A stretch of 64,000 nt of DNA, from the sequence record PP488543.1, one strand, 5' to 3'. The stretch comes from Escherichia phage BP9. A model generated the notes under the pieces. That model was not told where the DNA came from. It was given only the letters and a program-made list of their open reading frames with translations, and did not search any database. This document shows, piece after piece, positions 2,399 through 63,146 of the stretch (positions are counted from its first letter, which is position 1; every line of letters starts with the position of its first letter). The position numbers and the translations under genes are program-made.

Positions 2399-2764
2399 AT
2401 GGAACAAATGAACGATCAAGAGTCGGTTGCGATGAACGAGCAAGAACAACCTCAAGAATTTTTCTTAGGGTTAAGTAAAGATCAAGTGTCTCTTTTGCTA
2501 GTGCTTTCTTCTTTCATGGGAAGACTTCAGGAGCTCACACAACAACCGGAGGCTGAACAATTATTTCAGGCTCTGCGTGAAGAAGAAAAATATCGTCGTT
2601 TGGACTATGCCTTAGGTTGGGTAGCTCAACAACGAGATATGCTGATGGCCCTCTCTGGGACCACAAGTTTTGCAATGGGCCTGTTGGCTCAAGTTCAGGA
2701 CAAATTAATTCAAGCAGGGTTTGCACACACGGCAAACACTAACGAAGAACAAGGAGACAAATAA
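2399..2764 (+). CDS. hypothetical protein (121 aa)
   Basis: ORF with GGAG-like RBS; stop overlaps next start. Confidence 0.5.
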   Translation: MEQMNDQESVAMNEQEQPQEFFLGLSKDQVSLLLVLSSFMGRLQELTQQPEAEQLFQALREEEKYRRLDYALGWVAQQRDMLMALSGTTSFAMGLLAQVQDKLIQAGFAHTANTNEEQGDK

Positions 2765-3990
2765 TGAGCGTTATTCAACAATTCGCTAACCCGATGAATC
2801 CGCGTGAAACTGTTTTACTGGCTCACGGCATGATCAAGCGTGTTAGCATTAAACCTATTAAAGGGGCTGATCCTGCAACAGGTATTAAAACCACCGTGTG
2901 GCAAGGTAAGAAAATTGAATCCAGCCACACTATCTCTTTACTGATTTCTGAACTGGATTCCTCTGATAACCTGCTTCAAGGCGGTGAAGAAGTCTGGATC
3001 AGCATGGGTGATAAGCTGCTTAAACCGGGGCATCAAGACTCTGTCTCTGTTAAGATTGATGACAAGTGGGAAACCGTAACGCCAGGATGGATCGTAAATA
3101 TTCCTTTGAAGGCAAACGAGCATAACGGTAAGACCTATTACAAAGGCTCACTGGCTAAGATGGTTAAGCTGGGTGTAGGAGAGGCTCCAGCAGCGACTCA
3201 GCAGCAAAAACAGCAACAAGGTGCACAATCACAAGGCCAGAAGCAGAAACCTCAGCAGAATGCCAATCAGGACGTTTTACGCATCTATGGTGATGTGACT
3301 CAGATTGTTGGCAACGTGGTTACTGTCAATGACCACAAGATTGGCGAAGGTGCTATGGTTGTCACCGATGAGCAGCTTAAAGATCTGGTGGTAGGTGGTC
3401 GTGTTGCAGCCATTGTTGACAAAGACACCGGAAACATTATCAGTGGTTTCAAAGCCTATCCCCCTAAGGCAGAGAACGGCACTCAAGGCTCCGGTGGCAA
3501 GCGTAAATCCTCTTACGACCCTATCGGTGTGGAAACGGGGCATAGCATCAATGCGTTGCAGATCATCCTGGATCGCGGGTTTAAGGTAGACGACCCACTG
3601 GGCGTGGCTAAAACACTGCACGTAGTCACCATTGAGCTTAAGAAAGAGTATGCTCAGGCCACCAACCGAACTGAAGATGAAGTAGGTGCCAGTGTCGGTA
3701 ATGCGGTGTTGAACGCTTGTCGCCGTATTGACAAGAAAACGAAAGTTGAGGATTTTGCAGCGGCAATTACTGCAGAAGCAAAAGATGTCTTGACTAATCT
3801 GGCTGAGCCGTTGTACGATTGGATCAAGAACGGTGCTGGGTCAACTGACCATCAAGAACCTCAGGCTACCAAACAGGAAGCAGCTCCACAGCAAAACACT
3901 GTAGACGCTCCTCCTGTAAATGATGAGGAAGATGACCCAATGGATCAGAATCCAGCACAGTACTCCTTTGATGATGACATCCCTTTTTAA
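2764..3990 (+). CDS. protein with bacterial SSB-like acidic C-terminal tip (408 aa)
   Basis: C-terminus ...AQYSFDDDIPF matches E. coli SSB tip DFDDDIPF; Q-rich linker QQQKQQQGAQSQGQKQKPQQ; N-terminal domain unassigned. Confidence 0.55.
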   Translation: MSVIQQFANPMNPRETVLLAHGMIKRVSIKPIKGADPATGIKTTVWQGKKIESSHTISLLISELDSSDNLLQGGEEVWISMGDKLLKPGHQDSVSVKIDDKWETVTPGWIVNIPLKANEHNGKTYYKGSLAKMVKLGVGEAPAATQQQKQQQGAQSQGQKQKPQQNANQDVLRIYGDVTQIVGNVVTVNDHKIGEGAMVVTDEQLKDLVVGGRVAAIVDKDTGNIISGFKAYPPKAENGTQGSGGKRKSSYDPIGVETGHSINALQIILDRGFKVDDPLGVAKTLHVVTIELKKEYAQATNRTEDEVGASVGNAVLNACRRIDKKTKVEDFAAAITAEAKDVLTNLAEPLYDWIKNGAGSTDHQEPQATKQEAAPQQNTVDAPPVNDEEDDPMDQNPAQYSFDDDIPF

Positions 3991-4005
3991 CAATTAGTTA
4001 ACATA

Positions 4006-4034
4006 GCCCTGCCCGAAAGGGTGGGGCATTTTTG
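4006..4034 (+). terminator. intrinsic terminator
   Basis: GCCCTGCCC-GAAA-GGGTGGGGC hairpin followed by TTTTT. Confidence 0.55.
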
Positions 4035-4052
4035 TATAAGGAGATCTGAAAA

Positions 4053-4469
4053 ATGACATTAGAAGATATCATTGTTAAACCTGAGAACTATGACCAATAC
4101 AACCTGTCAACTCAATCTGTAGACCTTGGATGCGCCACGGTCAGTGCGTGGCTGGTTAACGGAAAAGAGCTAGATAAATGCTTAGAAGCTCACATGTCTA
4201 TTAACAAGTTTCTGGATGAAAATACTCACTGGCTTGAGGGTGCAGGAGTATATGCTTCATGGTTGGAGAGTATGGGATTTGACTACCAATCTGAAGAAGG
4301 GTGGTGGAGCTATTTAGCTATCTGCCCAGAGACGCTGCAATGCTTCATGAAATATTCTGAAGATTTGGAGTACCGGGCGGTGGTTGATAGTGCTATTGCC
4401 CGTTATAGCCGTAAACCTTTTTCCCACGACATTAAAACTGTGGAAGAATTTGTTGAAGTTTTCTGTTGA
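4053..4469 (+). CDS. hypothetical protein (138 aa)
   Basis: RBS AAGGAG upstream of ATG. Confidence 0.55.
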   Translation: MTLEDIIVKPENYDQYNLSTQSVDLGCATVSAWLVNGKELDKCLEAHMSINKFLDENTHWLEGAGVYASWLESMGFDYQSEEGWWSYLAICPETLQCFMKYSEDLEYRAVVDSAIARYSRKPFSHDIKTVEEFVEVFC

Positions 4470-4565
4470 CACAGGTTGAAAGGTGTGCAATTATAACTTC
4501 ATATAACGGGAGGACGCGATGAACGAAGAAAACTGGGATGTATAACTAACAGGAGGCCACTGCCC

Positions 4566-4763
4566 ATGATTTATCGAATCCGTGTAAGAGAAGATGCACC
4601 AGGCTGTTACTTTGACTGGCGTGGGTGGTGGTTTCTCCACCCAATGGATGGACTCACAGATAGAATGCTGGATGCTGCCCTTTATACAGATACTGACATA
4701 GAGTATAATCTTTACTTGAAGGATGGTATCGATAACGGCCTGTTTGAAGCAATTCCTGTGTAA
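4566..4763 (+). CDS. hypothetical protein (65 aa)
   Basis: RBS AGGAGG upstream; preceded by TTGACA promoter-like site and an 8-codon leader ORF. Confidence 0.5.
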   Translation: MIYRIRVREDAPGCYFDWRGWWFLHPMDGLTDRMLDAALYTDTDIEYNLYLKDGIDNGLFEAIPV

Positions 4764-4831
4764 GAGACTATGATAGCCATGTTTTATGATCTTCCTGTAG
4801 CACCACCACCTGTTGAACCCGGAGAACTAAG

Positions 4832-5257
4832 ATGATCTATGAAATGCCAAAACTGATTCGTGACGATGCCCAAAACGCTCACACCATTATTATGGGCAAA
4901 CGCATGGATATTATTTGTCATAAAGATTTCTGGGAAGGAAGTTACTTCACAGAATATTTTGGTAAACTAGACAATGGTCTGCTGATCCAGTTCTACACCG
5001 ATGCGGAAAACAACATTCACTGGGAGTTCGAAACTGAAGATATTCATAAACTTTTCACCTTCCTCGGTATTAAGGTTGAGGCCAAGTTTGAAGAAGGCGA
5101 GTGCGACGATTGTGGATTCTACGAGGTAACAGATTTCTATCTCCCAAGTGGTGAGAACCTTTACTATGAAAGCCACTTCGGCAACTCAAATATGCCACAA
5201 GGTTGGGATGAGTTTTTTGAAATTGCGGAAGAGGAGCTGGCATACCGTGATTATTGA
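4832..5257 (+). CDS. hypothetical protein (141 aa)
   Basis: RBS GGAG upstream of ATG. Confidence 0.55.
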   Translation: MIYEMPKLIRDDAQNAHTIIMGKRMDIICHKDFWEGSYFTEYFGKLDNGLLIQFYTDAENNIHWEFETEDIHKLFTFLGIKVEAKFEEGECDDCGFYEVTDFYLPSGENLYYESHFGNSNMPQGWDEFFEIAEEELAYRDY

Positions 5258-5705
5258 TACTGTAGAGGGAGATTTAATCTCCCTTTTTAAGAGCGGTGCT
5301 GGTCACCTGATCCACGGTTGTAACTGCTTCCACACAATGGGCAAGGGGATAGCAAAACAGATTGCCCGTGAGTTCCCTCAAGCATTGGCAGCTGACAAAG
5401 AGACCAGACACGGTTGCCTAAGTAAACTGGGTGCGTTCTCCCGATGGGAGCACTTATCTCCGAGAGGTATTGTCTACGGAATCAATCTGTATACTCAGTT
5501 CTACCCAGGACCTAATGCTGAATATTTCTCAATCCTGAAAGGCTTTGAGCTAGTCAATGAGGTATTCAGTGGATCGACTTTACCATTCTACATCCCTAAG
5601 ATCGGGTGCGGCATAGGCGGTTTGAAGTGGGAGCACGTAGAGGACGTTATTAACCTTGCCACTTTTGATATGAATATTATCGTGGTGGAGTACAAAAAGT
5701 GTTGA
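5247..5705 (+). CDS. macro-domain protein (ADP-ribose binding/processing fold)
   Basis: VEGDL..LIHGCNCFHTMGKGIAKQI and YIPKIGCGIGG resemble macro-domain NAAN/GGGV and GxYG loops; GTG start 10 nt after GAGGAG. Confidence 0.5.
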   Translation: MIIDTVEGDLISLFKSGAGHLIHGCNCFHTMGKGIAKQIAREFPQALAADKETRHGCLSKLGAFSRWEHLSPRGIVYGINLYTQFYPGPNAEYFSILKGFELVNEVFSGSTLPFYIPKIGCGIGGLKWEHVEDVINLATFDMNIIVVEYKKC

Positions 5706-5758
5706 CAGCGGGTTTTTGAGATGGTATAGTCACCACAACGATTGAGAGAGGGAGCACT

Positions 5759-5929
5759 ATGGAGACTAAAATCTTAATTCTGGCTGTGATAGATACAACT
5801 GAAGGGGCTGTGTTCGAATCTGCAGGAGGGTATTTCTACCTACCCTACGGAAAAAGAACTGCTGAACCAGGTAAAGATTCAATCATCAAAGTGTTCCCGT
5901 GTGCTTTCTGGCTGGAGATTTTGGTATAA
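5759..5929 (+). CDS. hypothetical small protein (56 aa)
   Basis: ATG after GAGAGAGGGAG; TTGACA-17-TATAGT promoter-like site at 5702-5730; not in track (<60 aa). Confidence 0.3.
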   Translation: METKILILAVIDTTEGAVFESAGGYFYLPYGKRTAEPGKDSIIKVFPCAFWLEILV

Positions 5930-5955
5930 GATTGCAGAGGATTTGGGAGAGAATT

Positions 5956-6150
5956 ATGAGAAACAAGAGAGAGCTTTACTCTGGCGAGTGGATAAACGAT
6001 CAACAGGTTGGAGAGGTAACCTGCTTCCGGTGTTTTACTCGGTACAATCTTAAAACTGCACCAAAAAGTGTTCCAAAGACTGATGGTTATTACATAAAAG
6101 AGCCTCATTGCCCGAAATGTAAATGCCGAGTATACTGGAGTAACCTGTAA
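5956..6150 (+). CDS. zinc-ribbon protein (64 aa)
   Basis: ATG 5956 after GGGAGAG; CxxC...CxKC cysteine pairs. Confidence 0.45.
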   Translation: MRNKRELYSGEWINDQQVGEVTCFRCFTRYNLKTAPKSVPKTDGYYIKEPHCPKCKCRVYWSNL

Positions 6151-6154
6151 AAGA

Positions 6155-6182
6155 TTGACATCTGAAAACTACAGTGTATAAT
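6155..6182 (+). promoter_or_regulatory. sigma70-like promoter (TTGACA-16-TATAAT)
   Basis: TTGACA 6155-6160, TATAAT 6177-6182. Confidence 0.45.
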
Positions 6183-6213
6183 ATACGCACAGACTAACAG
6201 AGAGCGACGTATT

Positions 6214-6405
6214 ATGGTAATTTTTAACCGGGATGGCATCATAGTTAGACAGCACCCCTTCCTTGAATACTATCAAATTGAGCAATGGTGCTACGGAGAT
6301 TGCAGTCACTCCTATGGGCAAAGTTGGGGATATCGCACAGTTTTTGAATCAACAGACCTTGACAAAGTAAGACAGAAAGTTTTAGAAATTATTAACAACA
6401 AGTGA
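6214..6405 (+). CDS. hypothetical protein (63 aa)
   Basis: ORF downstream of promoter 6155. Confidence 0.45.
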   Translation: MVIFNRDGIIVRQHPFLEYYQIEQWCYGDCSHSYGQSWGYRTVFESTDLDKVRQKVLEIINNK

Positions 6406-6415
6406 GTATCGTGCC

Positions 6416-6748
6416 ATGGTAACATTGGAAAGACGTAAAGCTATCGCCGCCACACTGGCAGACATCTTTTGGGATTGCAACTTAAAAGATACCCGAAATT
6501 GTGGCGCATCTGTAGATGTATTATTCCCACGGCCCACCATTGTTGCAATGGGAAACCTGTTAAACGTAGTGTACGGAGCATGGGACAAAGAAGGTGGATT
6601 CTATATCTGGCAACCTGACTACGGAGCCTGGAAAGAGGTAAGGGGTGCGGATGACTTTGGGCCTACAGTTGCTAAGATGGATGGCTGGGAAATTTATGTT
6701 GGAAACGACATGAAGCTGAAAGGCGAGATTGTTTACTGGTTACCTTAA
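6416..6748 (+). CDS. hypothetical protein (110 aa)
   Basis: ORF in co-directional block. Confidence 0.5.
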   Translation: MVTLERRKAIAATLADIFWDCNLKDTRNCGASVDVLFPRPTIVAMGNLLNVVYGAWDKEGGFYIWQPDYGAWKEVRGADDFGPTVAKMDGWEIYVGNDMKLKGEIVYWLP

Positions 6749-6768
6749 GAAAGTGCAGGAGATAAAGT

Positions 6769-7014
6769 ATGAACAAAGGGTGGACATTTGTAGACGGCGT
6801 TAAAAACATGCCTCTAGGAAAGTATATCGTAGCCATGGCTGATGAGGATGGCAATGTAGATTTCGGAGCTTGCGAGGTTGTTCTTGCAGGATCTGGTAAC
6901 TATGTGAGTAAAACCGGGATAATTAACGGTCAGTTCTACTTTGATCACAACCCTGTTGTAGCGTATATGGCTATGCCAGAGTTCAAGTTCCCAAAGGAGG
7001 GTGCAGATGTTTAA
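6769..7014 (+). CDS. hypothetical protein (81 aa)
   Basis: RBS CAGGAG upstream. Confidence 0.5.
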   Translation: MNKGWTFVDGVKNMPLGKYIVAMADEDGNVDFGACEVVLAGSGNYVSKTGIINGQFYFDHNPVVAYMAMPEFKFPKEGADV

Positions 7015-7204: not shown

Positions 7205-7530
7205 CAGAGATCATCATTTCAACTGCAGGGTATGTGTTCCTGACAATCATTGCACTGACTATTTTGGTGACAGTGTATGGGTTTGTTATCCTTCCTATCC
7301 TTGAGACATTTAGTTTGTGTCGGTGTTGGAGAAAAGCTTACGGTCCACAACCATGGAAGGACTGGCCCCACCTGGTGCGCTTAGCGTTCTCTTATGCTTA
7401 CGATCACTCCAGTAGTGCATGCATAACCGGATACCACGCCCACAACTGGAGCTGGGAAGGGTTGAGGAAATGGAATGTTACAAAGACCATACCTCTGCGC
7501 ATGTACAAACCTAAAAACAAAGACAACTGA
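7201..7530 (+). CDS. membrane protein (109 aa)
   Basis: ATGA coupling; hydrophobic N-terminal segment YVFLTIIALTILVTVYGFVILPIL. Confidence 0.5.
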   Translation: MTEIIISTAGYVFLTIIALTILVTVYGFVILPILETFSLCRCWRKAYGPQPWKDWPHLVRLAFSYAYDHSSSACITGYHAHNWSWEGLRKWNVTKTIPLRMYKPKNKDN

Positions 7531-7539
7531 TACTTGAAA

Positions 7540-8450
7540 ATTCCTGGCATATCAAGTATAAGGGGGATTTCTAAAATGGATTTCCTCCTTTTGATATTTC
7601 ACCGGACTGGATATTTTAAAATCCTTAGAAAATCAGAAAATAGATCGAAAACTAAAATGGATTTTTCAGAGTAGGCGCGACAAGCTGAATCACTCATCCT
7701 ATCGTTTGCACCATATTCCAGACCACCATTACAGATTTCCCGCACATGCTCACATCCTTCTACTAGAACTTCCCCCACTTAACATTGACCTTTTATGGTA
7801 ATAATATAACCACTATCTTGAAGTTGCGGTGCAGCTTTCCATGTACTCGATCTGTTTTTCGTTTCAAAGATTGAATTTTCTGAAAATTTTTCTCGATAAA
7901 TTTCCCAGTACTCGATCTGTTTTTCGTTTTCTGAATCGGATTTTCTGGAAATCGTTCCAGCTCTCGACCTGAAATTTTTGGGGACGAAATCGATTTTTCG
8001 TTTTCAGAAATGGATTTTTAAAATTTCTATATGGGAATATTTTATGGGATACTGTTTTATAGGAAATTGTTACGGAGGGTAATTAGCATGCTAATTAAAT
8101 TTATTAAATGCGAGGAGTTCTCATTTAGAATTTTGAATGATAATCATTCTCGTTTGCAGAATAACGGGCACCCCCGGTGATTGTCTCCCGGCCCCTACTG
8201 CCCCGGCTTGTTATTATAGTATCACACAGGACAAAGAAAGCAAGAAGTTTTTGCATAAATTTTTAGACGATAATGATAATCGTTCTCATTTCATGCAGCG
8301 CCCATCCCCGGTGGTTGTCTCCCCCGTCACCGGTGCCTGCCGTCCTTTCGATATGTATATTGTGCCACCTGGCGGGGCCGCTGTCAACACTTTTCAAAAA
8401 AAAATTCTAACCTGATGCGCTAACCGCTGCAACCTGGCGGGGCCAGCCTG
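7540..8450. repeat. repeat-rich noncoding boundary region
   Basis: Direct repeats TACTCGATCTGTTTTTCGTTTT (x2), AAAATGGATTT (x3) and GC-rich CCCCGGTG(A/G)TTGTCTCCC (x2); no convincing ORF. Confidence 0.5.
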
Positions 8451-8498
8451 GTGGGCCTATGCTATAGGATAGGTAACAATTGGAGAGGAGGTACAAAA

Positions 8499-8675
8499 AT
8501 GAAAGGTAATAGGATCCCCCTGGAAAATGTAGCTATTAATGACGCTGAGGCTATCACCCTGGTTGAAAAGGCTATGGCGGGAGCGTTGGAACATAAAGAA
8601 GAGTACGAAAAAATGATGGTTAACCTGTCAGGGGCGGCGGCTGGAGAATTCTACCCAAAAAATAATTTTAACTGA
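8499..8675 (+). CDS. hypothetical protein (58 aa)
   Basis: ATG after GGAGAGGAGG. Confidence 0.4.
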   Translation: MKGNRIPLENVAINDAEAITLVEKAMAGALEHKEEYEKMMVNLSGAAAGEFYPKNNFN

Positions 8676-8759
8676 TGGTTGACAGCTCGTACAGTTATTG
8701 TTATTCTTATCCTCGCAAGGTGAACAACACCACACCAATTAACAGAGAGGATAAAAATC

Positions 8760-8957
8760 ATGAACGCCTACGGAATCAAAGTACGTCGCAACACTCGCCA
8801 GGTGGTCACCAATCAAGTGATTTGCCGGGCGGATGTAACCATCAACAACGGGCAAGGCCTTTATAAATTTCGTCGCGGTCATAGTTATACCCTGCAACAG
8901 CTTAATCGTTGCGCCCTGACAAAAGGCCAGATCAACCACTGGTTTAATAAAAAATAA
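8760..8957 (+). CDS. hypothetical protein (65 aa)
   Basis: ATG after GAGAGGATAAAAATC. Confidence 0.45.
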   Translation: MNAYGIKVRRNTRQVVTNQVICRADVTINNGQGLYKFRRGHSYTLQQLNRCALTKGQINHWFNKK

Positions 8958-8960
8958 GTA

Positions 8961-18895: not shown

Positions 18896-19547
18896 TCTGC
18901 TCTTCCCCCCTACCACAAACGGCCCAGCCTGGCAAGTGGAATAATTGACTAGCCATCAATCCCACACACTGTACAAACATACATATAAAATAACTATTGC
19001 ATAATTTTTCATTGTGTGGTAGCAGGGCCATTTTTACACGTTTTTCCTTCCAAAATTGCACGTAATGCAGCATTTGCACAAAATTTAACCTTATGCATAT
19101 CTTCAATAGCTTGTCAACAACTAAAAATCTTTATAAGTCATACACTTACATAACCACAAAAGCGTGTCCTACGTGAAAAATCGGGTGTAACTATAGCCGC
19201 CAGATCTCAGAATTTACGTACGCTCGCCATTCTATAGCCTGCTAAGCATTTATTCCAACCATAGAATAACGGAATAGTCAATACCTGCATAAAATAATTA
19301 TTCGTGTAAACTGCATAACATAAATCAGCTCAGGTGTCAACATTTTTCGTAAACAGTCTGAAATTGTCACGATAGGTTATCATAAACAGAGAAATCTTTA
19401 GTCGTCTAATGTTTACTGTACGTTACTATACTAACTGGAATCATTAGATGACTAATAGAAAGATAAGAAATAATTAACAATACAATTATTTTATCTGTAA
19501 CAATAAGGCAACTATGCAAACGAATGGCATGGCGCGACGGAGTCGCG

Positions 19548-19697
19548 ACATAATATAAAAGCAGTAACCATCACCCCCGTGATAGTTTGTCTGCAAACTA
19601 TTAATCAGATCATAGTTGCCTTATATTTAGTTAATCATGACATAACAAGCAAGGCAACTATAGATCTTCTAATAGTTGCCCTGCTTTTATATTATGT
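19548..19697. repeat. 16-bp inverted repeat pair flanking a ~120-bp core
   Basis: CATAATATAAAAGCAG (19548-19563) and its reverse complement CTGCTTTTATATTATG (19682-19697); flanked by direct repeats ATGCAAACGAATGG(C/T)ATGGC. Confidence 0.5.
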
Positions 19698-19791
19698 CAT
19701 AGATTATTAACTTGCTAATAGTTATCATGCAAACGAATGGTATGGCTTATCATTTCCATGTAAATAGTTAGCTATGTAAACTATTGGTCAT

Positions 19792-19861
19792 GTAAACAGT
19801 AAAGGGCGTGAACAGTAAGCAGGTGAATGGTAATAGCGTGAATAGTGACAGCGTAAACAGT
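19792..19861. repeat. iteron array: 5 x GT(A/G)AA(C/T)(A/G)GT at 15-16-bp period
   Basis: GTAAACAGT 19792, GTGAACAGT 19808, GTGAATGGT 19823, GTGAATAGT 19838, GTAAACAGT 19853. Confidence 0.55.
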
Positions 19862-19865
19862 CAGG

Positions 19866-19962
19866 CATGTCAATTATGTCAATCGTGTTTAATGTTCCCA
19901 GTATGTCAAAGGTGTCATGTTATGTCACTATTGTGTCATATTGTGTCAGTTATGTCAGACAA
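19866..19962. repeat. iteron array: ~10 x (A/T)TGTCA at ~10-bp period
   Basis: catgtcaattatgtcaatcgtg...gtatgtcaaaggtgtcatgttatgtcactattgtgtcatattgtgtcagttatgtcag. Confidence 0.55.
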
Positions 19963-21372
19963 GTTTTTCTCCTCTTTGTCAAGTGCTGCATAAAAATTTA
20001 CAAGCTTGTATGGTAGCATTTTTGCGGCCCTGTTTACATTCAGGAGTGTATGTATAACCCTTGTTGTGTGGGCGTTTAGACGTCTAGACGGTTGGAAGTC
20101 TACAGGTCAATATCTAATCTATTGGCTGCTAACTATATCCCACACAAATAGTAAGAAATATAATTGTTATATGCGTAAACAGTAACCTATGTTATCAATC
20201 CATGTATGTATCGCCAGTGGTGCGCATAATGGGTATTATGTTAAATTGCCCGTAATGATAACTATTCTCACAATGATAGGTATTCTCATTCACCCCGCAA
20301 GATAGGTTGCAAATGTTGTGTCACTGTGTGAACGGCCTCGCCTATTAATTTGCCTCACTGCCTTGATATTTGAGAATTGTTATAAGAATGAGAAGTATTC
20401 CCATTTCGTCCGCCTGGCAGCACTCCAGTCGCTACGGCTCATAACAGGGCAGAACCAGTCCTATTCAGATATTTCTGGCTGGCTCTTCAGGTCTGTGTGG
20501 GAAAAGCCAACCCCTCCGGCGGCGGGGAGGGGGTCAATTAAAAAATTTACGTGGTGTATGAAGCGCTCTTCAGGTAAGGCATGTATTATGGGATGAAATC
20601 CTCTTCAGACAATGATATTTGTTGGTGTGATATTTGCTGGAAAGCCAGATATGACGGGACTCCCGGCGGGGCAGGGGTAGTACAGACAGGGAAAATATGG
20701 GGGATGTAGTTGGGGAAATTGATCAGGTAGGTAGAGTATGGAATATGTTACAGGTATGTTAAATAGGGAGGCTGAATATCTGTAAGATTTGTGTGTAAAA
20801 TCAAAGACTTAAGTGGTGTTGTGGTATTTTCTATAAATAATTCAGGTTTAATAGGTAATATTTGTTTCAATCCACTTTGTGTGGTAAACAGATTCAGATG
20901 AAATTGGTTTACAAGTGTATACATAATATACAAATTAAAGATACAAGAAACCCCCCTCCCCCTTCGGCTACCATTCACCTTTTCCTCTGACTGGTACTTA
21001 AACACTTATTCAGACTCTTTAGGTTATCACCCATATATCATATGGCAGTGACTGGTGTCCTCCGGCCCCTCTTTCGTCACCCGTCCGCTTCGCCATGCTA
21101 ATGCCATAGCCAAATGTTCGGTTGTTCACCCTGTTCACTCAGGTGTATCTCCATACCCTTCAAACCGAAGAGAACAGAAAACCCGAATTACTCGGTAAAA
21201 GAAAAGAGAAGAACTTAATTTTATCAGGATAGGCAAGAATGTCAAGGCATGACTGCTCACTAAACAAGCAAACAGCCATGTGTGGGAGGTAAGTTATTGT
21301 GGTGGTGGGAAATTTAGTTGAAAGATGTGTTATAGGTGCTTCCAGCACTTTAGCTGGGCAGCTAATTGTGTG

Positions 21373-55440: not shown

Positions 55441-56154
55441 TTAAATATACTCTGTTACATCCTTGAAGCTCGAAGGCTTCATGATCTTACCTTTGCTGTC
55501 AAGGAATATAATAACTTTATTGCCGTTGTAGAACTCCTCTTTAGCAACGAAACCTTCGTAGCGACCACCAAAACGACGCTCAAGATCTTTAATCTCCAAC
55601 TCGATGAGTTGTTCAGCAGGCATATCTGCACTGGCACCGTGTGAATACCGTAGATGGTTGATCCGTGCAAACTTACTGTCATTAGATTTGAGAACCTTCC
55701 GCATCATCCCACACACATCGCCGCGAAGCTGGAACAGCAAAGCTGTTGACAACTCCGCTAAGCGGTAAGCTGACGCTCTTTGCTTGGATGTGTTTTTCGC
55801 AGCGATCAGTGTATCATAGAACTCACCGATCTTGAACTTAAGACCTCGTGGATTATCAAACAGGTTTGACCACTTTTCGTGATTGTCATTAACAAGATAA
55901 GCTGCATAACTTGTGACAACGTGAAGATCGCAGGCCTCTTTTAGCAGGTGATCTCCACCATCACCTTTCTCCAGCTCTTCCAAAACCTCATTGAACTCTT
56001 CCTCAATGAAGCTAAGCTGTAATTCGAATGGTGTGTATGATTTTTTCACTTTAGCTGCCACACGGTTCCAGTTTTCCACCCAGTTGGCAGACCAAAGGTA
56101 GTTTTCAGGCTGGGACAGTTTTTCAAGGTTGTCGATTAATTTGGTGTTCAGCAT
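55441..56154 (-). CDS. all-alpha NTP pyrophosphohydrolase-like (MazG / dimeric dUTPase-like)
   Basis: Acidic helix FIEEEFNEVLEELEKGD followed by KEACDLHVV; weak assignment. Confidence 0.35.
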   Translation of the reverse strand: MLNTKLIDNLEKLSQPENYLWSANWVENWNRVAAKVKKSYTPFELQLSFIEEEFNEVLEELEKGDGGDHLLKEACDLHVVTSYAAYLVNDNHEKWSNLFDNPRGLKFKIGEFYDTLIAAKNTSKQRASAYRLAELSTALLFQLRGDVCGMMRKVLKSNDSKFARINHLRYSHGASADMPAEQLIELEIKDLERRFGGRYEGFVAKEEFYNGNKVIIFLDSKGKIMKPSSFKDVTEYI

Positions 56155-56167
56155 TAAAGGTCTCCTT

Positions 56168-56929
56168 TTAAAGTTCCATAAAGTTTTCTACAGTTTCAAT
56201 AAATGCTTTATCAGAGAAAGCGTCAACAGCACCGTTAAACCATACAGGGATCCCGCGATCCTCATATTGATAAAGGTCGCTACGTGAAATGCCACTTCCA
56301 TCTGCACTCTGCGAATCATACTTGTTTACAATCAGCAGCTTTGTGCCTTTACAAGTAGCAGGAAACAATTCCCAGTTAAAATTAATAACTGTGTTAGAAC
56401 AACCTACCAGGATCACCATATCATTGCTTGTGAGAGATGTCAACAGGTCATACATGTCTGTATACTTAGGAGCAACCTCACCGAAGAACACTACATTGGG
56501 CTTAACCCAGGTATACTTGCCTGTATCTACCTCCGTGTATCCGATATTTTTAATTACATCATTACCTTCATCATCTTCGTAGGTGATTTCAGGCAAATAC
56601 CCGTGGACATGTAAAATATCTTCATGTTTTACACCAGCACGCTCCAGCAAATCATCTACATTGGTGGTAAGGTTGATCACACGACCAGACCAGCGGGAAT
56701 ACCACTCAGCGATCCGAAGATGTGCAAGGTTAGGATCAACACTGCCCAGAGCTACACGACGTGCATTGTAAAAATCATGCACCTTATAGTAGTTCTTGGC
56801 AAAGGTGTGGATGTTGCACACCTCATCGATGCTGAAATTCTCCCACATTGCAGTGCTACCAGATCGGAAAGTGGGAATACCAGATTCAGCGCTCAAACCC
56901 GCACCGGATATAATAATCAGTCGTCGCAT
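56168..56929 (-). CDS. Sir2-family (sirtuin) protein lacking Zn-ribbon cysteines
   Basis: GAGLSAESGIPTFRSGS, TNVDDL, HG and NVVFFGE sirtuin motifs; no CxxC pairs between HG and VFFGE. Confidence 0.7.
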   Translation of the reverse strand: MRRLIIISGAGLSAESGIPTFRSGSTAMWENFSIDEVCNIHTFAKNYYKVHDFYNARRVALGSVDPNLAHLRIAEWYSRWSGRVINLTTNVDDLLERAGVKHEDILHVHGYLPEITYEDDEGNDVIKNIGYTEVDTGKYTWVKPNVVFFGEVAPKYTDMYDLLTSLTSNDMVILVGCSNTVINFNWELFPATCKGTKLLIVNKYDSQSADGSGISRSDLYQYEDRGIPVWFNGAVDAFSDKAFIETVENFMEL

Positions 56930-56937
56930 AAGTGCCC

Positions 56938-57288
56938 TCAGTAGATGTTTTGTTTAATCTCTATTCCAAACTTTTTAAACGAGTCAGCTGCAAGCATGAA
57001 TTTACGAGCCGCTGATGGATTAGAAGTATGCACGAAAATCTTCACGTTGTCAACTACAGGAGGCTTACCAAATACAAATTTTTCCTCCAACATAGATAGG
57101 CAATCGTACCCTTCGAATACCTCTCCAAGGTCGTTGTCCATATGCCACTCAGAAACGCGTCTGTAGAGCTTTTTATTATCGTTAATAAAATCCATAAACT
57201 CGGAGGAATTCTTTAGCCAAATAGCGTCTGGGAGCCCATAATTTGAAGGATCTCTCAGATCATCCAGCCACACAATCAACTTCTTCAT
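56938..57288 (-). CDS. hypothetical protein (116 aa)
   Basis: ATGA coupling to the RNA ligase-like gene; MKKLIVWLDDLRDP...VHTSNP. Confidence 0.45.
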   Translation of the reverse strand: MKKLIVWLDDLRDPSNYGLPDAIWLKNSSEFMDFINDNKKLYRRVSEWHMDNDLGEVFEGYDCLSMLEEKFVFGKPPVVDNVKIFVHTSNPSAARKFMLAADSFKKFGIEIKQNIY

Positions 57289-58220
57289 TGCATATAGTCC
57301 TCGTTGTGGAAATAGTGGTCAAGTATCTCACGGCGTTCCTGCTCCAGGAGGCAGTTCCACACATCTTCTGTGTAATTGCTACGAATGAAGTTTACCATGC
57401 CGTAAAACTCTTCATCAACACGTTTAAAGATATCATCATCCCAAATCTTCCAAGCTTTACCCCTCATTACGGCCTTCCGTGCCAGATAGTATGGAGACTT
57501 GATCTTCAGCTGCAGGTCGTAAGGGTAGTAAGGCTTACGGATCATATACCCTTCACCTCTTGTTTCTGCAGCTAATTCTTTTGCATAGCTGAACGGAATT
57601 TCACGCACAGTGTGAGGACGTTTTGCACCAAGGTATTTGGCAATCCCATCTAAAGCTGCTTCTGGTAGCATTATTCCAGAATCATTATATCTGCAACCTA
57701 TCAAATATGCGCCATGATCTTCTTGAACAATATGCGGATCTGAAGGGTGACAAATTTCAAACATGAATGTCATGTTTTCATTGCCCATAACCTTCTTGAT
57801 AAGATCTAAATTACCACATTGCTCCTGGATGGTTTCCTTTGCGAGGTTACAATATGGAGAATCAAGAGATCCGGTTGTTGAGAACAATAGTTCACCTTTA
57901 TGAGATGATACCACACCGAGGAATCCGTTCTTTTTCTCTACCGCAGTCACAAGTTTACTGTCCGGTAGGTTGGTGGAGTTTTCTCCCAAGTTAAACACTT
58001 TTGTGAAGGGCCATGCCACAACATTTCCTTCATTCCCGACAACAATGCCTCGGCACTCCAGTAAACGAGGGGACAAATGCCATAAATTGTTGTAAAATAC
58101 TTTTCTAGCATATTTATAGATCTTTAACCCGAGATCTGGGTAATATCTGCTGGTTACAAGACCTTTGTCAACTAGGTCGTCTGCATTAAAATACTTCATC
58201 ATACGTTCCTCATTTGTCAT
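57285..58220 (-). CDS. RNA ligase-like nucleotidyltransferase
   Basis: K-x-N-G (VEKKNGFLG), F-E (MTFMFEICH), EG motif (GEGYMIRKP), K-x-K (LKIKSP); distinct from the DNA ligase at 53531. Confidence 0.5.
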   Translation of the reverse strand: MTNEERMMKYFNADDLVDKGLVTSRYYPDLGLKIYKYARKVFYNNLWHLSPRLLECRGIVVGNEGNVVAWPFTKVFNLGENSTNLPDSKLVTAVEKKNGFLGVVSSHKGELLFSTTGSLDSPYCNLAKETIQEQCGNLDLIKKVMGNENMTFMFEICHPSDPHIVQEDHGAYLIGCRYNDSGIMLPEAALDGIAKYLGAKRPHTVREIPFSYAKELAAETRGEGYMIRKPYYPYDLQLKIKSPYYLARKAVMRGKAWKIWDDDIFKRVDEEFYGMVNFIRSNYTEDVWNCLLEQERREILDHYFHNEDYMQ

Positions 58221-58320: not shown

Positions 58321-58728
58321 ATGTCTAAAATGCTATATATCGTGCGTGGTCTACCAGGGTCTGGCAAATCAACACTGGCAAATGCGCTATCTTTAGAGGG
58401 TCTGTATCCACATTTTGAGAACGACATGTTCTGGTACGACGATGATGGAAATTACAACTGGGATGCAAGTAAAGTCACACTTGCAGCAAAATGGTGCAAA
58501 GATAACGTAGAAGATATGATGCGTATGGGATACGACCGTATCGTGGTAAGTAATACGTTTACAAAAGAAAAATATGTGCAAAAATATATTGACATGGCAA
58601 TCAGTTATGGGTATAGTTATACCGTAATCGTGGTTGAAAACCGCCACGGTAATAAAAGCATTCATGCTTCAGACGAGGTTGTGGATCGTATGGAACGCCA
58701 ACTTAAAAACTGCATTAAACTTAAATGA
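58321..58728 (+). CDS. P-loop polynucleotide kinase-like protein
   Basis: ATG after GGAGGG; Walker A GLPGSGKST; 135 aa. Confidence 0.55.
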   Translation: MSKMLYIVRGLPGSGKSTLANALSLEGLYPHFENDMFWYDDDGNYNWDASKVTLAAKWCKDNVEDMMRMGYDRIVVSNTFTKEKYVQKYIDMAISYGYSYTVIVVENRHGNKSIHASDEVVDRMERQLKNCIKLK

Positions 58729-58735
58729 GGAATGT

Positions 58736-59290
58736 ATGAAATACTTTGTAACAAGCGACACACACTTTCTCCACCAGCGGGTCATGGAGTTTGATTCATG
58801 TCAAAAACACAGATCTCAGTATGATCACAATCTTGACAGTATGAATGCGGGAATCATCGCCGAGTGGAACTCTGTTGTGTCACCTGCAGACACTGTGTTC
58901 CACTTGGGGGATATTGCGTGCACTAATGATAAGAATATCAACAACTTACTTCCAGATATTCTAAATATGTTGAACGGACATATTATTCTTGTTCGTGGCA
59001 ACCATGACACAAGGACGACTGTCAGAATTATGAAAGAGTTCTATCATGAGGTTGTAGATTATTACGAGCTTCGCCACAACAAGAATTTGATCTGTATGAG
59101 CCATTACCAATTTGCAAAGTGGAACAGAAAGCATCACGGATCAGTCCAACTGTTCGGTCATGCTCACGGAACCACACAACAGTTGTTTGGCAGGCAGCTT
59201 GATGTCGGTTGGGATGTGTGGGGGAGACTCTTACCATTAGAAGAGGCATACCGTATTGCAATGAGTTTTGCTATTGACAGCGGGGAGTAA
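58736..59290 (+). CDS. calcineurin-type metallophosphoesterase
   Basis: SDTHF, HLGDIA, VRGNHD, GHAHG metallophosphatase motifs. Confidence 0.65.
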   Translation: MKYFVTSDTHFLHQRVMEFDSCQKHRSQYDHNLDSMNAGIIAEWNSVVSPADTVFHLGDIACTNDKNINNLLPDILNMLNGHIILVRGNHDTRTTVRIMKEFYHEVVDYYELRHNKNLICMSHYQFAKWNRKHHGSVQLFGHAHGTTQQLFGRQLDVGWDVWGRLLPLEEAYRIAMSFAIDSGE

Positions 59291-62206: not shown

Positions 62207-62281
62207 GCCCTGTTAGCTTAGTGGATAAAGCAGCGGCCTTCTAAGCCGTTGACACTGGTTCGAGTCCAGTACGGGGTGCCA
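62207..62281 (+). tRNA. tRNA-Arg (anticodon TCT)
   Basis: Hand-folded cloverleaf: acceptor GCCCTGT/ACGGGGT, D-stem GCTT/AAGC, anticodon loop CTTCTAA, T-loop TTCGAGT, encoded CCA. Confidence 0.7.
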
Positions 62282-62411
62282 AGTTCTTTTTAATGTAGCT
62301 TACTTTAGCAGAGTAAATCTTCGGCAAGTGGCGGTAACCACTTTACCGATACCTCATAGTTAGTGGTTAGAACACTAGCTATTTTAAAAAGAATTTAAAT
62401 ATTAGTATTTA

Positions 62412-62499
62412 GGTGAGTTAATTCCGTAGGGGTAGCGGGGCAGACTGTAAATCTGTTATCATTGCGATTCGGGTGGTTCGACTCCATCACTCACCACCA
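62412..62499 (+). tRNA. tRNA-Tyr (anticodon GTA), long variable arm
   Basis: Acceptor GGTGAGT/ACTCACC, anticodon loop CTGTAAA, T-loop TTCGACT, CCA encoded; D-arm irregular in hand fold. Confidence 0.55.
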
Positions 62500-62613
62500 A
62501 ATTTATATTTTTAGATGCATAAATCATACAGATAATGGCATTGATATTTATCGTCGTTTATACTAGTCACTAACTGCTCGAAAATCAGTGTCATTATCAG
62601 TATAATTTATAAA

Positions 62614-62704
62614 GGAGGGTAGGGAGCAATGGTGCTCAAGCGGTCTTGAAAACCGTCCCATTGAGGATGACTCGATGATGGTTCGATTCCATTACTCTCC
62701 GCCA
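62614..62704 (+). tRNA. tRNA-Ser (anticodon TGA), long variable arm
   Basis: Acceptor GGAGGGT/ACTCTCC, anticodon loop CTTGAAA, ~20-nt variable arm, T-loop TTCGATT, CCA encoded. Confidence 0.6.
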
Positions 62705-62802
62705 CATTGTTGACCTTGTAATTAAGCGAAAGCCGGAAGCAGAACCGGATTATCAAATGTTACAGTCGTCATCGCCGACTAGCAACATGGTCAACATACT
62801 GA

Positions 62803-62901
62803 GCTAGGTAAGCCCTTTGGCAAGGGCGAGGATTTTTAATCCTGAAAATAGACGAGGTAGTCGTTGAATACATAGGTGGTTCGATTCCACCGCCTAGCAC
62901 C
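62803..62901 (+). tRNA. aberrant tRNA-like element (99 nt; anticodon-loop TTT, oversized variable region)
   Basis: Acceptor GCTAGGT/GCCTAGC, D-arm GCCC/GGGC, loop TTTTTAA, T-arm GGTGG-TTCGATT-CCACC, but ~30 nt between anticodon stem and T-arm. Confidence 0.3.
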
Positions 62902-62906
62902 TTTTT

Positions 62907-62982
62907 GCTGATGTAGCACAATTGGTAGTGCAATTGATTTGTAATCAATAGGTTGCAGGTTCAAGTCCTGCCATCAGCACCA
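62907..62982 (+). tRNA. tRNA-Thr (anticodon TGT)
   Basis: Acceptor GCTGATG/CATCAGC, D-stem GCAC/GTGC, anticodon loop TTTGTAA, T-loop TTCAAGT, CCA encoded. Confidence 0.75.
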
Positions 62983-62983
62983 A

Positions 62984-63058
62984 GGCCCTGTAGCTGGAAG
63001 GTTCAAGCAAGCGACTCATAATCGCCAGACGGTGGTTCAATTCCACCCAGGGCCACCA
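62984..63058 (+). tRNA. tRNA-Met (anticodon CAT; Ile2 not excluded)
   Basis: Acceptor GGCCCTG/CAGGGCC, anticodon loop CTCATAA, T-loop TTCAATT, CCA encoded. Confidence 0.7.
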
Positions 63059-63069
63059 AATAGTAAATA

Positions 63070-63146
63070 CTCCGCGTAGCTCAGCTTGGTAGAGCGCCTG
63101 ATTTGGGATCAGGAGGTCGAGTGTTCGAATCACTCCGTGGAGACCA
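63070..63146 (+). tRNA. tRNA-Pro (anticodon TGG)
   Basis: Acceptor CTCCGCG/CGTGGAG, D-stem GCTC/GAGC, anticodon loop TTTGGGA, T-loop TTCGAAT, CCA encoded. Confidence 0.75.

What the first reader, a model, noticed from the sequence alone, without database searches (positions are those of the whole stretch)
5247..5705. Macro-domain protein in the first early block
The 5148-5705 ORF, most plausibly starting at GTG 5247 after GAGGAG, has macro-domain-like loops (LIHGCNCFHTMGKGIAKQI; YIPKIGCGIGG). Macro domains bind or hydrolyse ADP-ribose adducts; a phage copy expressed early could reverse ADP-ribosylation of DNA or proteins imposed by host toxins or defence systems (for example DarT-type).
Basis: partly seen in the sequence, partly recalled or inferred. 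Interest (0 to 1): 0.5.

Follow-up and report, generated by a model that had tools for sequence, protein, structure and literature searches.

The report
Phage anti-DarT macrodomain (AdfM-like)
This gene of an rV5-like E. coli phage encodes a small enzyme of the macro-domain type that removes ADP-ribose; it is clearly related to the phage T4 protein recently shown to defeat the bacterial DarTG2 defence, so it is a real gene of an already recognised counter-defence kind.

Summary
Bases 5247-5705 (+) encode a 152-aa stand-alone macro domain: Pfam Macro above threshold, PHROG 335 at E=5e-59, AlphaFold pLDDT 96, and best folds TARG1, DarG and Poa1p.

GTG 5247 is the true start. Homologue N-termini coincide there, and the Krischvirus orthologue has ATG at the aligned base.

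The window is a Vequintavirus of the JES2013 species. GenBank already calls this CDS "macro domain protein".

The protein is 39% identical over its full length (E=4e-40) to T4 Tk.4. That protein was named AdfM in 2025, after its knockout made T4 sensitive to DarTG2. It is also 69% identical to the gene in the tk.4 position of Krischvirus GEC-3S.

The family lacks the catalytic Lys of DarG and TARG1. It has an invariant Gln84, plus His23 and Asn26, as in Streptomyces SCO6735, a lysine-free enzyme that cleaves thymidine-linked ADP-ribose on DNA.

Most likely function (about 0.6): an orphan-antitoxin hydrolase, probably expressed early, that strips DarT2 ADP-ribose from phage ssDNA. The main rival is processing of soluble ADP-ribose derivatives, possibly from the phage's own sirtuin/cREC/RNA-ligase module.

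Extra finding: between near-identical phage backbones the macro ORF alone drops to 71-80% DNA identity, which indicates allele swapping.

Verdict: new member of a known kind, modest interest.

The parts
5247..5705 (+). CDS of the 152-aa stand-alone macro-domain protein (GTG start, TGA stop at 5703-5705)
   Evidence: The start is fixed.
5231..5236 (+). Shine-Dalgarno GAGGAG, 10 nt before GTG 5247, inside the 3' end of the upstream ORF
   Evidence: Sequence. Conserved in Vequintavirus relatives.
5307..5363 (+). Loop 1 region LIHGCNCFHTMGKGIAKQI. It holds His23, invariant Asn26 (distal-ribose contact, positions Gln84 by analogy with SCO6735 Asn27) and the phosphate-binding G32-x-G34.
   Evidence: SCO6735 residue roles from PMC9411070
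5484..5498 (+). NLYTQ motif. The invariant Gln84 occupies the position of the catalytic Lys of DarG (K80) and TARG1 (K84), and of the essential Gln85 of SCO6735.
   Evidence: PMC9411070
5589..5630 (+). Loop 2 YIPKIGCGIGGLKW, the diphosphate-binding glycine-rich loop. Pro117, Gly120 and Gly122 are conserved (Pro117 and Gly120 in 66 of 66 family members, Gly122 in 65 of 66). Gly124 sits where TARG1 has the catalytic Asp125.
4466..4494 (+). Nearest strong sigma-70-like promoter upstream (TTGACA, 17 nt, AATTAT with a TG extension). Likely start of the transcription unit 4566-4763 / 4832-5257 / 5247-5705.
   Evidence: A consensus match only.
4832..5257 (+). Upstream 141-aa ORF (phrog_8157, unknown function). 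Its stop overlaps the macro start by 11 nt, so it is co-transcribed and probably translationally coupled.
   Evidence: Its linkage to the macro gene is not conserved in Krischvirus.
4566..4763 (+). First ORF of the putative unit (65 aa, phrog_9903, unknown function)
5702..5730 (+). Next promoter-like site (TTGACA, 17 nt, TATAGT with a TG extension). Its -35 hexamer contains the macro stop codon, and it marks the end of the unit.

Best explanation
The gene encodes an AdfM-type 'orphan antitoxin': a 152-aa stand-alone macro-domain ADP-ribosyl glycohydrolase. It is made from a host-RNA-polymerase (sigma-70-type) promoter, probably early in infection.

Proposed mechanism:
- When a host DarTG2 system is triggered, DarT2 ADP-ribosylates thymidines in single-stranded phage DNA and blocks replication.
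- The phage enzyme binds the ADP-ribose in the cleft formed by loop 1 (H23-G-C-N26 ... G32-K-G34) and loop 2 (P117-K-I-G120-C-G122-I-G-G).
- It hydrolyses the ribose-thymine bond and restores unmodified DNA.
- Catalysis is lysine-independent. Invariant Gln84, held in place by Asn26, positions the distal ribose for attack by water, as proposed for SCO6735. This replaces the Lys80 of DarG and the Lys84/Asp125 dyad of TARG1.
- It has no DarT-binding domain, so neutralisation is mainly enzymatic.

Shown here: fold, family, conserved active-site residues, homology to T4 AdfM, purifying selection.
Inferred: substrate, timing of expression, biological role in this phage.
For: - Macro domain: Pfam above threshold; the family profile hits DarG, BT1257, SCO6735, TARG1 and Poa1p at E=2e-17 to 3e-14; AF2 pLDDT 96.4; Foldseek top hits are TARG1, Poa1p and DarG with TM 0.72-0.85.
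- Its only defence-system (PADLOC) hit and its only significant NCBIfam hit are to DarG models, over the macro part only (PADLOC DarG E=1e-13; NF048014 E=1.6e-12).
- Full-length homology to T4 Tk.4: 39% identity, 63% positives, E=4e-40. Both fall in phrog_335 over the same profile range.
- T4 tk.4 (renamed adfM) was the single significant hit in a transposon screen on a DarTG2 host, and a clean knockout became DarTG2-sensitive (bioRxiv 10.1101/2025.11.20.689424).
- Krischvirus GEC-3S carries a 69%-identical gene in the syntenic position between vs and tk.3..tk.
- In 66 family members G24, N26, G34, A36, N80, Q84, P117 and G120 are invariant, and H23 is present in 65 of 66.
- Gln84 aligns with SCO6735 Gln85. 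The Q85A mutant is dead, and SCO6735 cleaves T-linked ADP-ribose on DNA and protects against DarT (PMC9411070).
- dN/dS against the Bas53 allele is 0.115.
- A chimallivirus macrodomain, PhiKZ AdfM, removes DarT2 marks from DNA (PMC13309987). This shows that phages use the strategy.
- The promoter context fits early expression.
Against: - There is no experiment on any Vequintavirus, and whether these phages meet or resist DarTG2 is not reported.
- The T4 evidence is genetic, comes from a preprint, and includes no biochemistry for the Gln-type phage enzyme.
- At 39% identity, substrate specificity could differ. Macro domains are promiscuous across proteins, nucleic acids, OAADPr and ADPr-1''P.
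- The DNA-positioning lysines of SCO6735 are only partly matched. K33 is present here but is Ala in most of the family and Ser in T4. The loop carrying SCO6735 Lys89 is absent.
- The same genome encodes a sirtuin/cREC/RNA-ligase/MazG module predicted to generate ADP-ribose derivatives.
- A comparative survey argued that phage Macro domains mostly target soluble ADPr derivatives (PMC9503650).
Confidence: 0.6

Rival explanations
1. It is a housekeeping enzyme for soluble ADP-ribose derivatives: a Poa1p-like ADP-ribose-1''-phosphate phosphatase and/or an O-acetyl-ADP-ribose deacetylase. It would act in trans on products of the phage's own sirtuin-centred RNA-repair module (RNA ligase, cREC, SIR2 and a MazG-like protein at 55.4-58.2 kb), or it would detoxify ADPr-1''P.
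For: - Poa1p is among the best sequence and fold matches, and it shares the LIHxCNC...GxG motif including His23.
- The legacy annotations 'phosphatase' and 'A1pp motif' point the same way.
- The window carries Rnl1-type ligase, cREC, SIR2 and a MazG-like gene. This is exactly the 'phage V5' neighbourhood that Iyer et al. predicted to produce ADPr>P (PMC9503650).
- That paper argues phage Macro domains mainly process soluble ADPr derivatives.
Against: - The macro gene lies about 50 kb from the sirtuin module, in a different transcription block. Iyer et al. themselves note that no Macro gene is adjacent to it.
- T4 has the macro gene; that it has no sirtuin is from my own knowledge of the T4 genome, not checked here. 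Consistent with it, the taxa listed for the 2782 macro and the 1018 Sir2 phage records largely differ.
- The T4 homologue has a DarTG2-specific phenotype.
- Appr1p phosphatase activity is a weak, generic side activity of many macro domains (my own knowledge).
Confidence: 0.15
2. It reverses ADP-ribosylation of targets other than DNA thymidine. Candidates are mRNA or tRNA modified by RNA-targeting ADP-ribosyltransferase defences (CmdTAC-like), or phage or host proteins modified by host ARTs. Alternatively it is a broad-spectrum eraser of which DarT2 marks are only one substrate.
For: - The closest solved relatives include TARG1, which acts on protein Glu/Asp-ADPr and on DNA, and SCO6735, which acts on both PARP1-ADPr and T-ADPr DNA.
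- The family is very widespread, in 2782 phage records across many phage families and hosts. This suggests a commonly met threat.
- Alleles are swapped between otherwise near-identical phages.
Against: - No direct evidence for an RNA or protein substrate.
- The only genetic phenotype known for the family is on DarTG2.
- TARG1's protein-directed Lys/Asp dyad is absent.
Confidence: 0.15
3. It destroys or sequesters ADP-ribose-derived immune signals (Thoeris gcADPR or His-ADPR), or it acts non-catalytically by binding DarT. The latter would resemble the interaction-inhibition seen with inactive SCO6735.
For: - Macro domains bind ADPr derivatives and occur as sensors in TIR systems (PMC9503650).
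- SCO6735 Q85A still inhibits DarT in vitro.
Against: - The strict invariance of the catalytic-site residues N26 and Q84 and the glycine loops across 66 diverse members argues for an enzyme rather than a sponge.
- There is no DarT-binding C-terminal domain, and only positions 3-139 of the 338 in the DarG model are matched.
- There is no evidence for cleavage of cyclic ADPR isomers by this macro class.
Confidence: 0.06

Closest known systems
T4 Tk.4 = AdfM (anti-DarT factor Macrodomain; HIDEN-SEQ preprint, bioRxiv 10.1101/2025.11.20.689424)
   Same: - Stand-alone macro domain of about 150 aa.
- 39% identity over the full length, E=4e-40, and the same PHROG 335.
- The same motifs: HGCNCFHTMGxGxA, NLYTQFxPGPN and PxIGxGIG.
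- The same Gln at the catalytic position.
- Non-essential accessory gene in an early-type region.
   Different: - Different phage family (Vequintavirinae against Straboviridae) and different neighbours.
- Only 39% identical.
- The function of this copy is untested.
Streptomyces coelicolor SCO6735 (PDB 5E3B) and Bacteroides BT1257 (2AFC/2FG1)
   Same: - Orphan ALC1-like-class macro domains that lack the Lys/Asp catalytic residues.
- Gln at the catalytic position, with His and Asn in loop 1 and a GCGxxGG loop 2.
- SCO6735 hydrolyses T-linked ADPr-DNA and counteracts DarT, and its Q85A mutant is inactive (PMC9411070).
   Different: - Only 22-24% identity.
- The phage family lacks the 6-7-residue insertion after the Gln that carries SCO6735 Lys89.
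- Cellular proteins, not viral.
DarG (DarG2) antitoxin macrodomain (Mtb 5M3I, T. aquaticus 5M31/5M3E)
   Same: - Best single-sequence PDB hit (E=4e-7) and best profile hit (E=2e-17).
- The same fold, with conserved Asn26/Asn22, GxG and loop 2.
- The presumed substrate is the same.
   Different: - Gln84 replaces the catalytic Lys80, and His23 replaces Asn.
- No C-terminal DarT-binding domain and no adjacent darT gene.
- Scores 47 bits against the equivalog cut-off of 250.
Chimallivirus AdfM (PhiKZ gp104; PMC13309987)
   Same: A phage-encoded stand-alone macrodomain that removes DarT2 ADP-ribose from DNA. Same strategy and same name.
   Different: - A separate macro lineage of the DarG-like Lys type (N23/K78).
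- A search with T. aquaticus DarG finds 291 phage records, which by the taxa listed are jumbo, chimalli- and G7C-like phages. The taxa listed for the 2782 Tk.4-type records are different: no T4-like or Vequintavirus record appears in the rows shown for the DarG search.
- PhiKZ AdfM is imported into the phage nucleus.
Human TARG1/OARD1 and yeast Poa1p
   Same: Top structural neighbours, with TM 0.72-0.85. Poa1p shares the LIHxCNC motif.
   Different: - TARG1's Lys84 and Asp125 are replaced by Gln84 and Gly124.
- The central region of Poa1p does not align at sequence level.

Membership tests
Macro domain (Pfam PF01661) | Whole-protein score above Pfam's gathering threshold | tested here: met
   28.3 bits against a cut-off of 22, E=1.9e-6
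Macro domain (Pfam PF01661) | Three-layer alpha/beta/alpha macro fold | tested here: met
   The AF2 model has pLDDT 96.4 and pTM 0.91. All top Foldseek hits in the PDB and BFVD are macro domains.
Macro domain (Pfam PF01661) | ADP-ribose-binding loops: Asn plus GxG after strand 2, and a glycine-rich diphosphate loop | tested here: met
   N26, G32-x-G34, P117, G120 and G122 are invariant in the 7-sequence alignment with DarG, SCO6735 and BT1257. In the 66-member family alignment N26, G34, P117 and G120 are invariant, G122 is present in 65 of 66 and G32 in 59 of 66. Actual ADP-ribose binding was not testable.
AdfM, T4 Tk.4 type (anti-DarTG2 phage macrodomain) | Full-length homology to T4 Tk.4 and the same phage orthologous group | tested here: met
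   39% identity, E=4e-40. Both are in phrog_335 at profile positions 54-205. A 69%-identical gene sits at the tk.4 locus of Krischvirus GEC-3S.
AdfM, T4 Tk.4 type (anti-DarTG2 phage macrodomain) | The gene is required for plating on DarTG2 hosts and dispensable otherwise | not testable with these tools
   Shown only for T4. No Vequintavirus data were found.
AdfM, T4 Tk.4 type (anti-DarTG2 phage macrodomain) | Removes ADP-ribose from thymidine in ssDNA | not testable with these tools
   The biochemistry exists for SCO6735 and PhiKZ AdfM only.
DarG antitoxin (NCBIfam NF048014 equivalog; PADLOC DarG) | Two-domain architecture (macro plus C-terminal DarT-binding domain) scoring above the equivalog cut-off | tested here: not met
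   47.4 bits against a cut-off of 250. Only model positions 3-139 of 338 are matched, and the protein is 152 aa.
DarG antitoxin (NCBIfam NF048014 equivalog; PADLOC DarG) | Adjacent darT toxin gene | tested here: not met
   The neighbours have no Pfam or PADLOC hit and belong to phage-only PHROGs of unknown function.
DarG antitoxin (NCBIfam NF048014 equivalog; PADLOC DarG) | Catalytic Lys (T. aquaticus K80) | tested here: not met
   Gln84 is aligned to the Lys of NFPTK and is invariant in 66 of 66 family members.
TARG1/OARD1 | Lys84/Asp125 catalytic dyad | tested here: not met
   Gln84 and Gly124 opposite Asp125.
SCO6735-type lysine-independent ALC1-like macrodomain | Gln at the catalytic position, supported by the loop-1 Asn and His and by the PB-loop glycines | tested here: met
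   Q84, N26 and H23 align with SCO6735 Q85, N27 and H24, and the GCGxxGG loop aligns as well. Residue roles are from PMC9411070.
SCO6735-type lysine-independent ALC1-like macrodomain | DNA-positioning lysines Lys34 and Lys89 | tested here: inconclusive
   K33 is present in this protein but is Ala in 43 of 66 members and Ser in T4. The insertion carrying Lys89 is absent.
Poa1p-type ADP-ribose-1''-phosphate phosphatase | Catalytic residues identified by Poa1p mutants (H23, S30, F152), and phosphatase activity | tested here: inconclusive
   H23 and T30 align with Poa1p H23 and S30 in the N-terminal stretch. The central and C-terminal catalytic context is not aligned by sequence, and activity is not testable.

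The most novel reading that the evidence does not exclude
The Tk.4/Vequintavirus macrodomains are a lysine-independent (Gln84) lineage. They would derive from orphan SCO6735/BT1257-like bacterial macrodomains rather than from DarG2, and they behave as a hypervariable, recombination-swapped counter-defence cassette.

Between phage backbones that are 96-100% identical, only the macro ORF is replaced by an old allele (71-80% DNA identity, dS about 1.1). Related alleles move between Vequintavirinae and Krischvirus.

Different alleles might be tuned to different DarT2 variants or to additional ADP-ribosylating defences acting on DNA, RNA or protein. Alternatively they might escape a host factor that senses or inhibits the enzyme.
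Probability: 0.25. Interest if true: 0.5.

Novelty: new member of a known kind. Interest (0 to 1): 0.3.

Why it matters
If confirmed, it would extend the AdfM anti-DarTG2 strategy from T4-like and nucleus-forming phages to the rV5-like Vequintavirinae. These are broad-host-range E. coli phages often considered for therapy and biocontrol, so the gene would help predict which hosts carrying DarTG can restrict them.

The Gln-for-Lys active site, shared with T4 AdfM, implies that most phage anti-DarT macrodomains use the poorly understood lysine-independent mechanism known only from SCO6735. About 2800 of the 50,697 phage records hold this type, against about 290 with the DarG-like type.

The allele swapping confined to this ORF is a modest hint of ongoing selection on the gene.

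None of this overturns current understanding.

Tried and rejected
1. **Alternative start ATG 5208**, used in PQ014731. Rejected: the N-termini of homologues and the ATG of GEC-3S align with GTG 5247.

2. **A two-gene module with the translationally coupled upstream ORF 4832-5257**, as a surrogate for DarG's C-terminal DarT-binding domain. Rejected:
   - It has no PADLOC or Pfam hit.
   - In Krischvirus its homologue lies about 9 kb from the macro gene.
   - I did not model its structure.

3. **A NADAR (AdfN-like, anti-DarTG1) partner**, as reported for Bas60-62. Pfam scans of 39 window ORFs found none. The scan was not exhaustive.

4. **Membership in DarG proper.** Rejected on architecture, score and catalytic residue.

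5. **A functional link to the phage sirtuin module.** Kept only as a rival, because the genes are unlinked and, by the taxa listed, occur largely in different phage groups.

6. **Rfam and tRNA scans.** Nothing relevant near the gene.

7. **Literature on Vequintavirus transcription timing or DarTG sensitivity.** Nothing usable was found.

8. **Placing Poa1p's central catalytic region against this protein.** Failed at sequence level.

I did not use the large representative-protein search or the genome and metagenome locus scans, since the answer did not depend on them.
Full report
**Observation**

The window is an rV5-like E. coli phage. Bases 4000-7000 are 99.4% identical to E. coli O157 typing phage 4 and 98.8% to phage JES2013 (Vequintavirus JES2013).

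The ORF 5148-5705 exists. The real gene starts at GTG 5247:
- GAGGAG (5231-5236) lies 10 nt upstream.
- The GTG overlaps the last codons of ORF 4832-5257 (TGA at 5255-5257).
- In a 66-member family alignment, most N-termini fall within about two residues of this Met.
- The orthologue in Krischvirus GEC-3S has ATG at the aligned base.
- Three GenBank records annotate the same 459-nt CDS, and one of them already calls it 'macro domain protein'.
- One record uses ATG 5208, which homology does not support.

**What it is**

- The 152-aa product passes Pfam's Macro threshold (28.3 bits against 22).
- It matches PHROG 335 ('phosphatase') at E=5e-59.
- As a family profile it hits the solved macrodomains of M. 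tuberculosis DarG (E=2e-17), Bacteroides BT1257, Streptomyces SCO6735, T. aquaticus DarG, human TARG1 and yeast Poa1p.
- AlphaFold2 with the family alignment gives pLDDT 96.4 and pTM 0.91.
- Foldseek ranks TARG1, Poa1p and DarG first in the PDB (TM 0.72-0.85). In BFVD the top matches include tk.4 of Acinetobacter phage 133 and other phage macro proteins.
- Among defence-system and NCBIfam models, only DarG models are hit with significance. They match over their macro part only: PADLOC positions 4-141 of 329, and NF048014 at 47 bits against a cut-off of 250.

So this is a stand-alone macro domain of the ALC1-like (TARG1/DarG/SCO6735) class. It is not a DarG.

**Relation to characterised phage proteins**

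The protein aligns end to end with T4 Tk.4 (39% identity, 63% positives, E=4e-40), and both fall in the same PHROG over the same profile range.

A 2025 preprint found tk.4 as the single T4 gene depleted in a transposon library on a DarTG2 host. It showed that a clean knockout becomes DarTG2-sensitive, and it renamed the gene adfM. The gene is dispensable on K-12 (45 of 46 TA sites hit).

In Krischvirus GEC-3S, the gene in the tk.4 position (vs | macro | three small ORFs | tk) is 69% identical to the window protein and 44% to T4 Tk.4. This links the Vequintavirus gene to the tk.4 locus family.

tblastn finds this family in 2782 of 50,697 phage records. By the organism tallies and the rows listed these include T4-like, Vequintavirus, Felixounavirus-like and Pakpunavirus-like phages (the family-level names are my reading of the records shown).

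A second, independent 'AdfM' is PhiKZ gp104, which removes DarT2 marks from DNA (PMC13309987). It belongs to a different, DarG-like lineage. Searching with T. aquaticus DarG finds 291 phage records, which by the taxa listed are jumbo or chimalliviruses and G7C-like phages. No T4-like or Vequintavirus record appears in the rows shown.

**Active site**

Across the 66 members, G24, N26, G34, A36, N80, Q84, P117 and G120 are invariant, and H23, Y82, T83, G122 and G125 are nearly so.

In alignments with solved relatives, the phage motif NLYTQ lines up with NMIGQ of SCO6735 and BT1257 and with NFPTK of DarG. Gly124 lies opposite TARG1 Asp125. The family, T4 AdfM included, therefore lacks the catalytic Lys of DarG and TARG1 and carries the Gln of SCO6735.

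For SCO6735, published work gives the following (PMC9411070):
- Q85A abolishes activity.
- Asn27 locks Gln85 in position.
- The enzyme cleaves thymidine-linked ADP-ribose on DNA.
- It protects against DarT.
- A water-mediated, lysine-independent mechanism was proposed.

The equivalents H23, N26 and Q84 and the glycine loop are present here. SCO6735's DNA-positioning Lys34 is matched in this protein (K33) but not in most of the family, and the insertion carrying Lys89 is missing.

**Context and expression**

Sigma-70-like promoters with at least 10 of 12 consensus matches are strictly strand-consistent. There are 21 on the + strand between 689 and 18382, and 29 on the - strand between 58171 and 21218. 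The two blocks converge near 19-21 kb and diverge near 58.2 kb.

The macro gene is the last of three ORFs downstream of the promoter-like site at 4466-4494, which itself follows a terminator-like hairpin at 4006-4027. The macro stop codon lies inside the -35 hexamer of the next promoter-like site at 5702-5730.

The neighbours are phage-only families of unknown function, without Pfam or PADLOC hits. The upstream ORF is unlinked to the macro gene in Krischvirus. Early expression is thus plausible but only inferred.

**Evolution**

dN/dS against the Bas53 allele is 0.115, with dS about 1.1, which indicates purifying selection on an old divergence.

Window and Bas53 DNA are 96-100% identical in the flanks. 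Identity falls to 71-80% across 5277-5726, essentially the macro ORF.

Across phage records, the upstream ORF is at least 90% identical in about 115 Vequintavirus genomes. The macro protein splits into about 72 records at 90% or more and about 41 at 80-90%. Metagenomic alleles form a graded series down to about 55%.

Substitutions between the two Vequintavirus alleles cluster at residues 54-75, 97-111 and 140-145, away from the active-site loops.

This points to allele replacement by recombination, including exchange with Krischvirus.

**Mechanism and rivals**

*Best explanation (about 0.6).* The protein is an orphan-antitoxin hydrolase, probably made early, that removes DarT2-type ADP-ribose from thymidines of phage ssDNA by a Gln84/Asn26-dependent, lysine-independent mechanism.

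*Main rival (about 0.15).* It processes soluble ADP-ribose derivatives. The genome carries the RNA ligase / cREC / SIR2 / MazG-like neighbourhood (55.4-58.2 kb). Iyer et al. (PMC9503650) described this neighbourhood for 'phage V5' and predicted that it generates ADPr>P. However, they note that no Macro gene is linked to it. T4 has the macro gene and, as far as I know, no sirtuin; that absence was not checked here. The Sir2 gene and the macro gene are also tallied in largely different phage groups.

*Other rivals.* A broader or different macromolecular substrate such as RNA or protein (about 0.15), and signal degradation or non-catalytic binding (about 0.06). The second is disfavoured by the invariant catalytic residues.

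**Novelty**

- The macro annotation is already public.
- Phage macrodomain anti-DarT factors are published for T4 (preprint) and for chimalliviruses.
- No Vequintavirus copy has been tested.
- What this analysis adds:
  - the assignment to the Tk.4/AdfM family;
  - the Gln-type (SCO6735-like) active site shared with T4 AdfM;
  - the separation from the Lys-type PhiKZ AdfM lineage;
  - the ORF-confined allele swapping.

Verdict: a real feature, correctly interpreted, and a new member of a known kind. Interest is about 0.3.

Noticed in passing
window 55441-58220 (- strand), plus 58634-59290 (+): Four adjacent genes form a sirtuin-centred predicted RNA-repair module: Rnl1-type RNA ligase (57285-58220), cREC 'cyclic-phosphate processing receiver' (56938-57288), a SIR2-family protein (56168-56929) and a MazG-like pyrophosphohydrolase (55441-56154). 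A calcineurin-like phosphoesterase lies across the divergent promoter region. This is the 'phage V5' neighbourhood described by Iyer et al. 2022 (PMC9503650), and it is experimentally uncharacterised. Sir2 homologues occur in 1018 phage records.
   Followed up: partly
window 5277-5726, compared with L005 (phage Bas53/JohannBauhin): DNA identity between two Vequintavirus species is 96-100% in the flanks but drops to 71-80% exactly over the macro ORF. A second, smaller dip lies at 6626-6715. This is a mosaic pattern indicating allele replacement.
   Followed up: partly
window 2764-3990 (+): This 408-aa protein of unknown function (phrog_4477, no Pfam or PDB sequence hit) has a Gln-rich linker and a C-terminal tip ...YSFDDDIPF. 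The tip resembles the acidic C-terminal tail of E. coli SSB (from memory). It may be a phage SSB or a mimic that recruits SSB partners.
   Followed up: partly
window ~3990, compared with L002 13367-13990 and NC_022323 ORF198: The close relatives JES2013 and VB-EcoM-WM carry a gene of about 640 nt annotated 'endonuclease VII' (207 aa). It is inserted at the 3' end of the gene above, extending that gene's reading frame by 15 codons. The window lacks this insertion, so it is an endonuclease-free allele.
   Followed up: partly
window ~7530-8960: About 1.4 kb has no annotated CDS in relatives. It contains imperfect direct repeats: 47-57-nt units spaced 65-74 nt apart at 7833-8018 (core TTTTTCGTTTYC..GGATTTT), and further repeat pairs at 8136/8272, 8169/8303 and 8363/8428. 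It looks iteron-like. There is no Rfam hit.
   Followed up: no
window ~18900-21200: The + and - strand gene blocks converge on a stretch of about 2 kb without convincing ORFs. It probably corresponds to the transposon-free intergenic region of about 2 kb reported for Bas54 in the HIDEN-SEQ preprint. There is no Rfam family hit.
   Followed up: no
window 62207-63146: A tRNA cluster (Arg-TCT, Ser-TGA, Thr-TGT, Met-CAT, Pro-TGG). ARAGORN makes an odd call at 62803-62901 with a 4-base anticodon. Rfam finds an extra tRNA at 62412-62496 that ARAGORN misses.
   Followed up: no
public records MG0656xx ('Campylobacter phage' A142, C7 and others): Sixteen records labelled as Campylobacter jejuni phages are 97-98.5% identical to this E. 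coli Vequintavirus region. They are probably mislabelled or contaminant genomes.
   Followed up: no
window 5956-6150 (+): A 64-aa ORF with a clear Phage_zn_bind_2 domain (PF23903, E=8e-23), two genes downstream of the macro gene.
   Followed up: no
window 4520-4546 (+): An 8-codon mini-ORF (MNEENWDV) with a strong GGGAGGA Shine-Dalgarno sequence, immediately downstream of the promoter-like site at 4466-4494 and ahead of ORF 4566-4763. It could be a leader peptide or chance.
   Followed up: no
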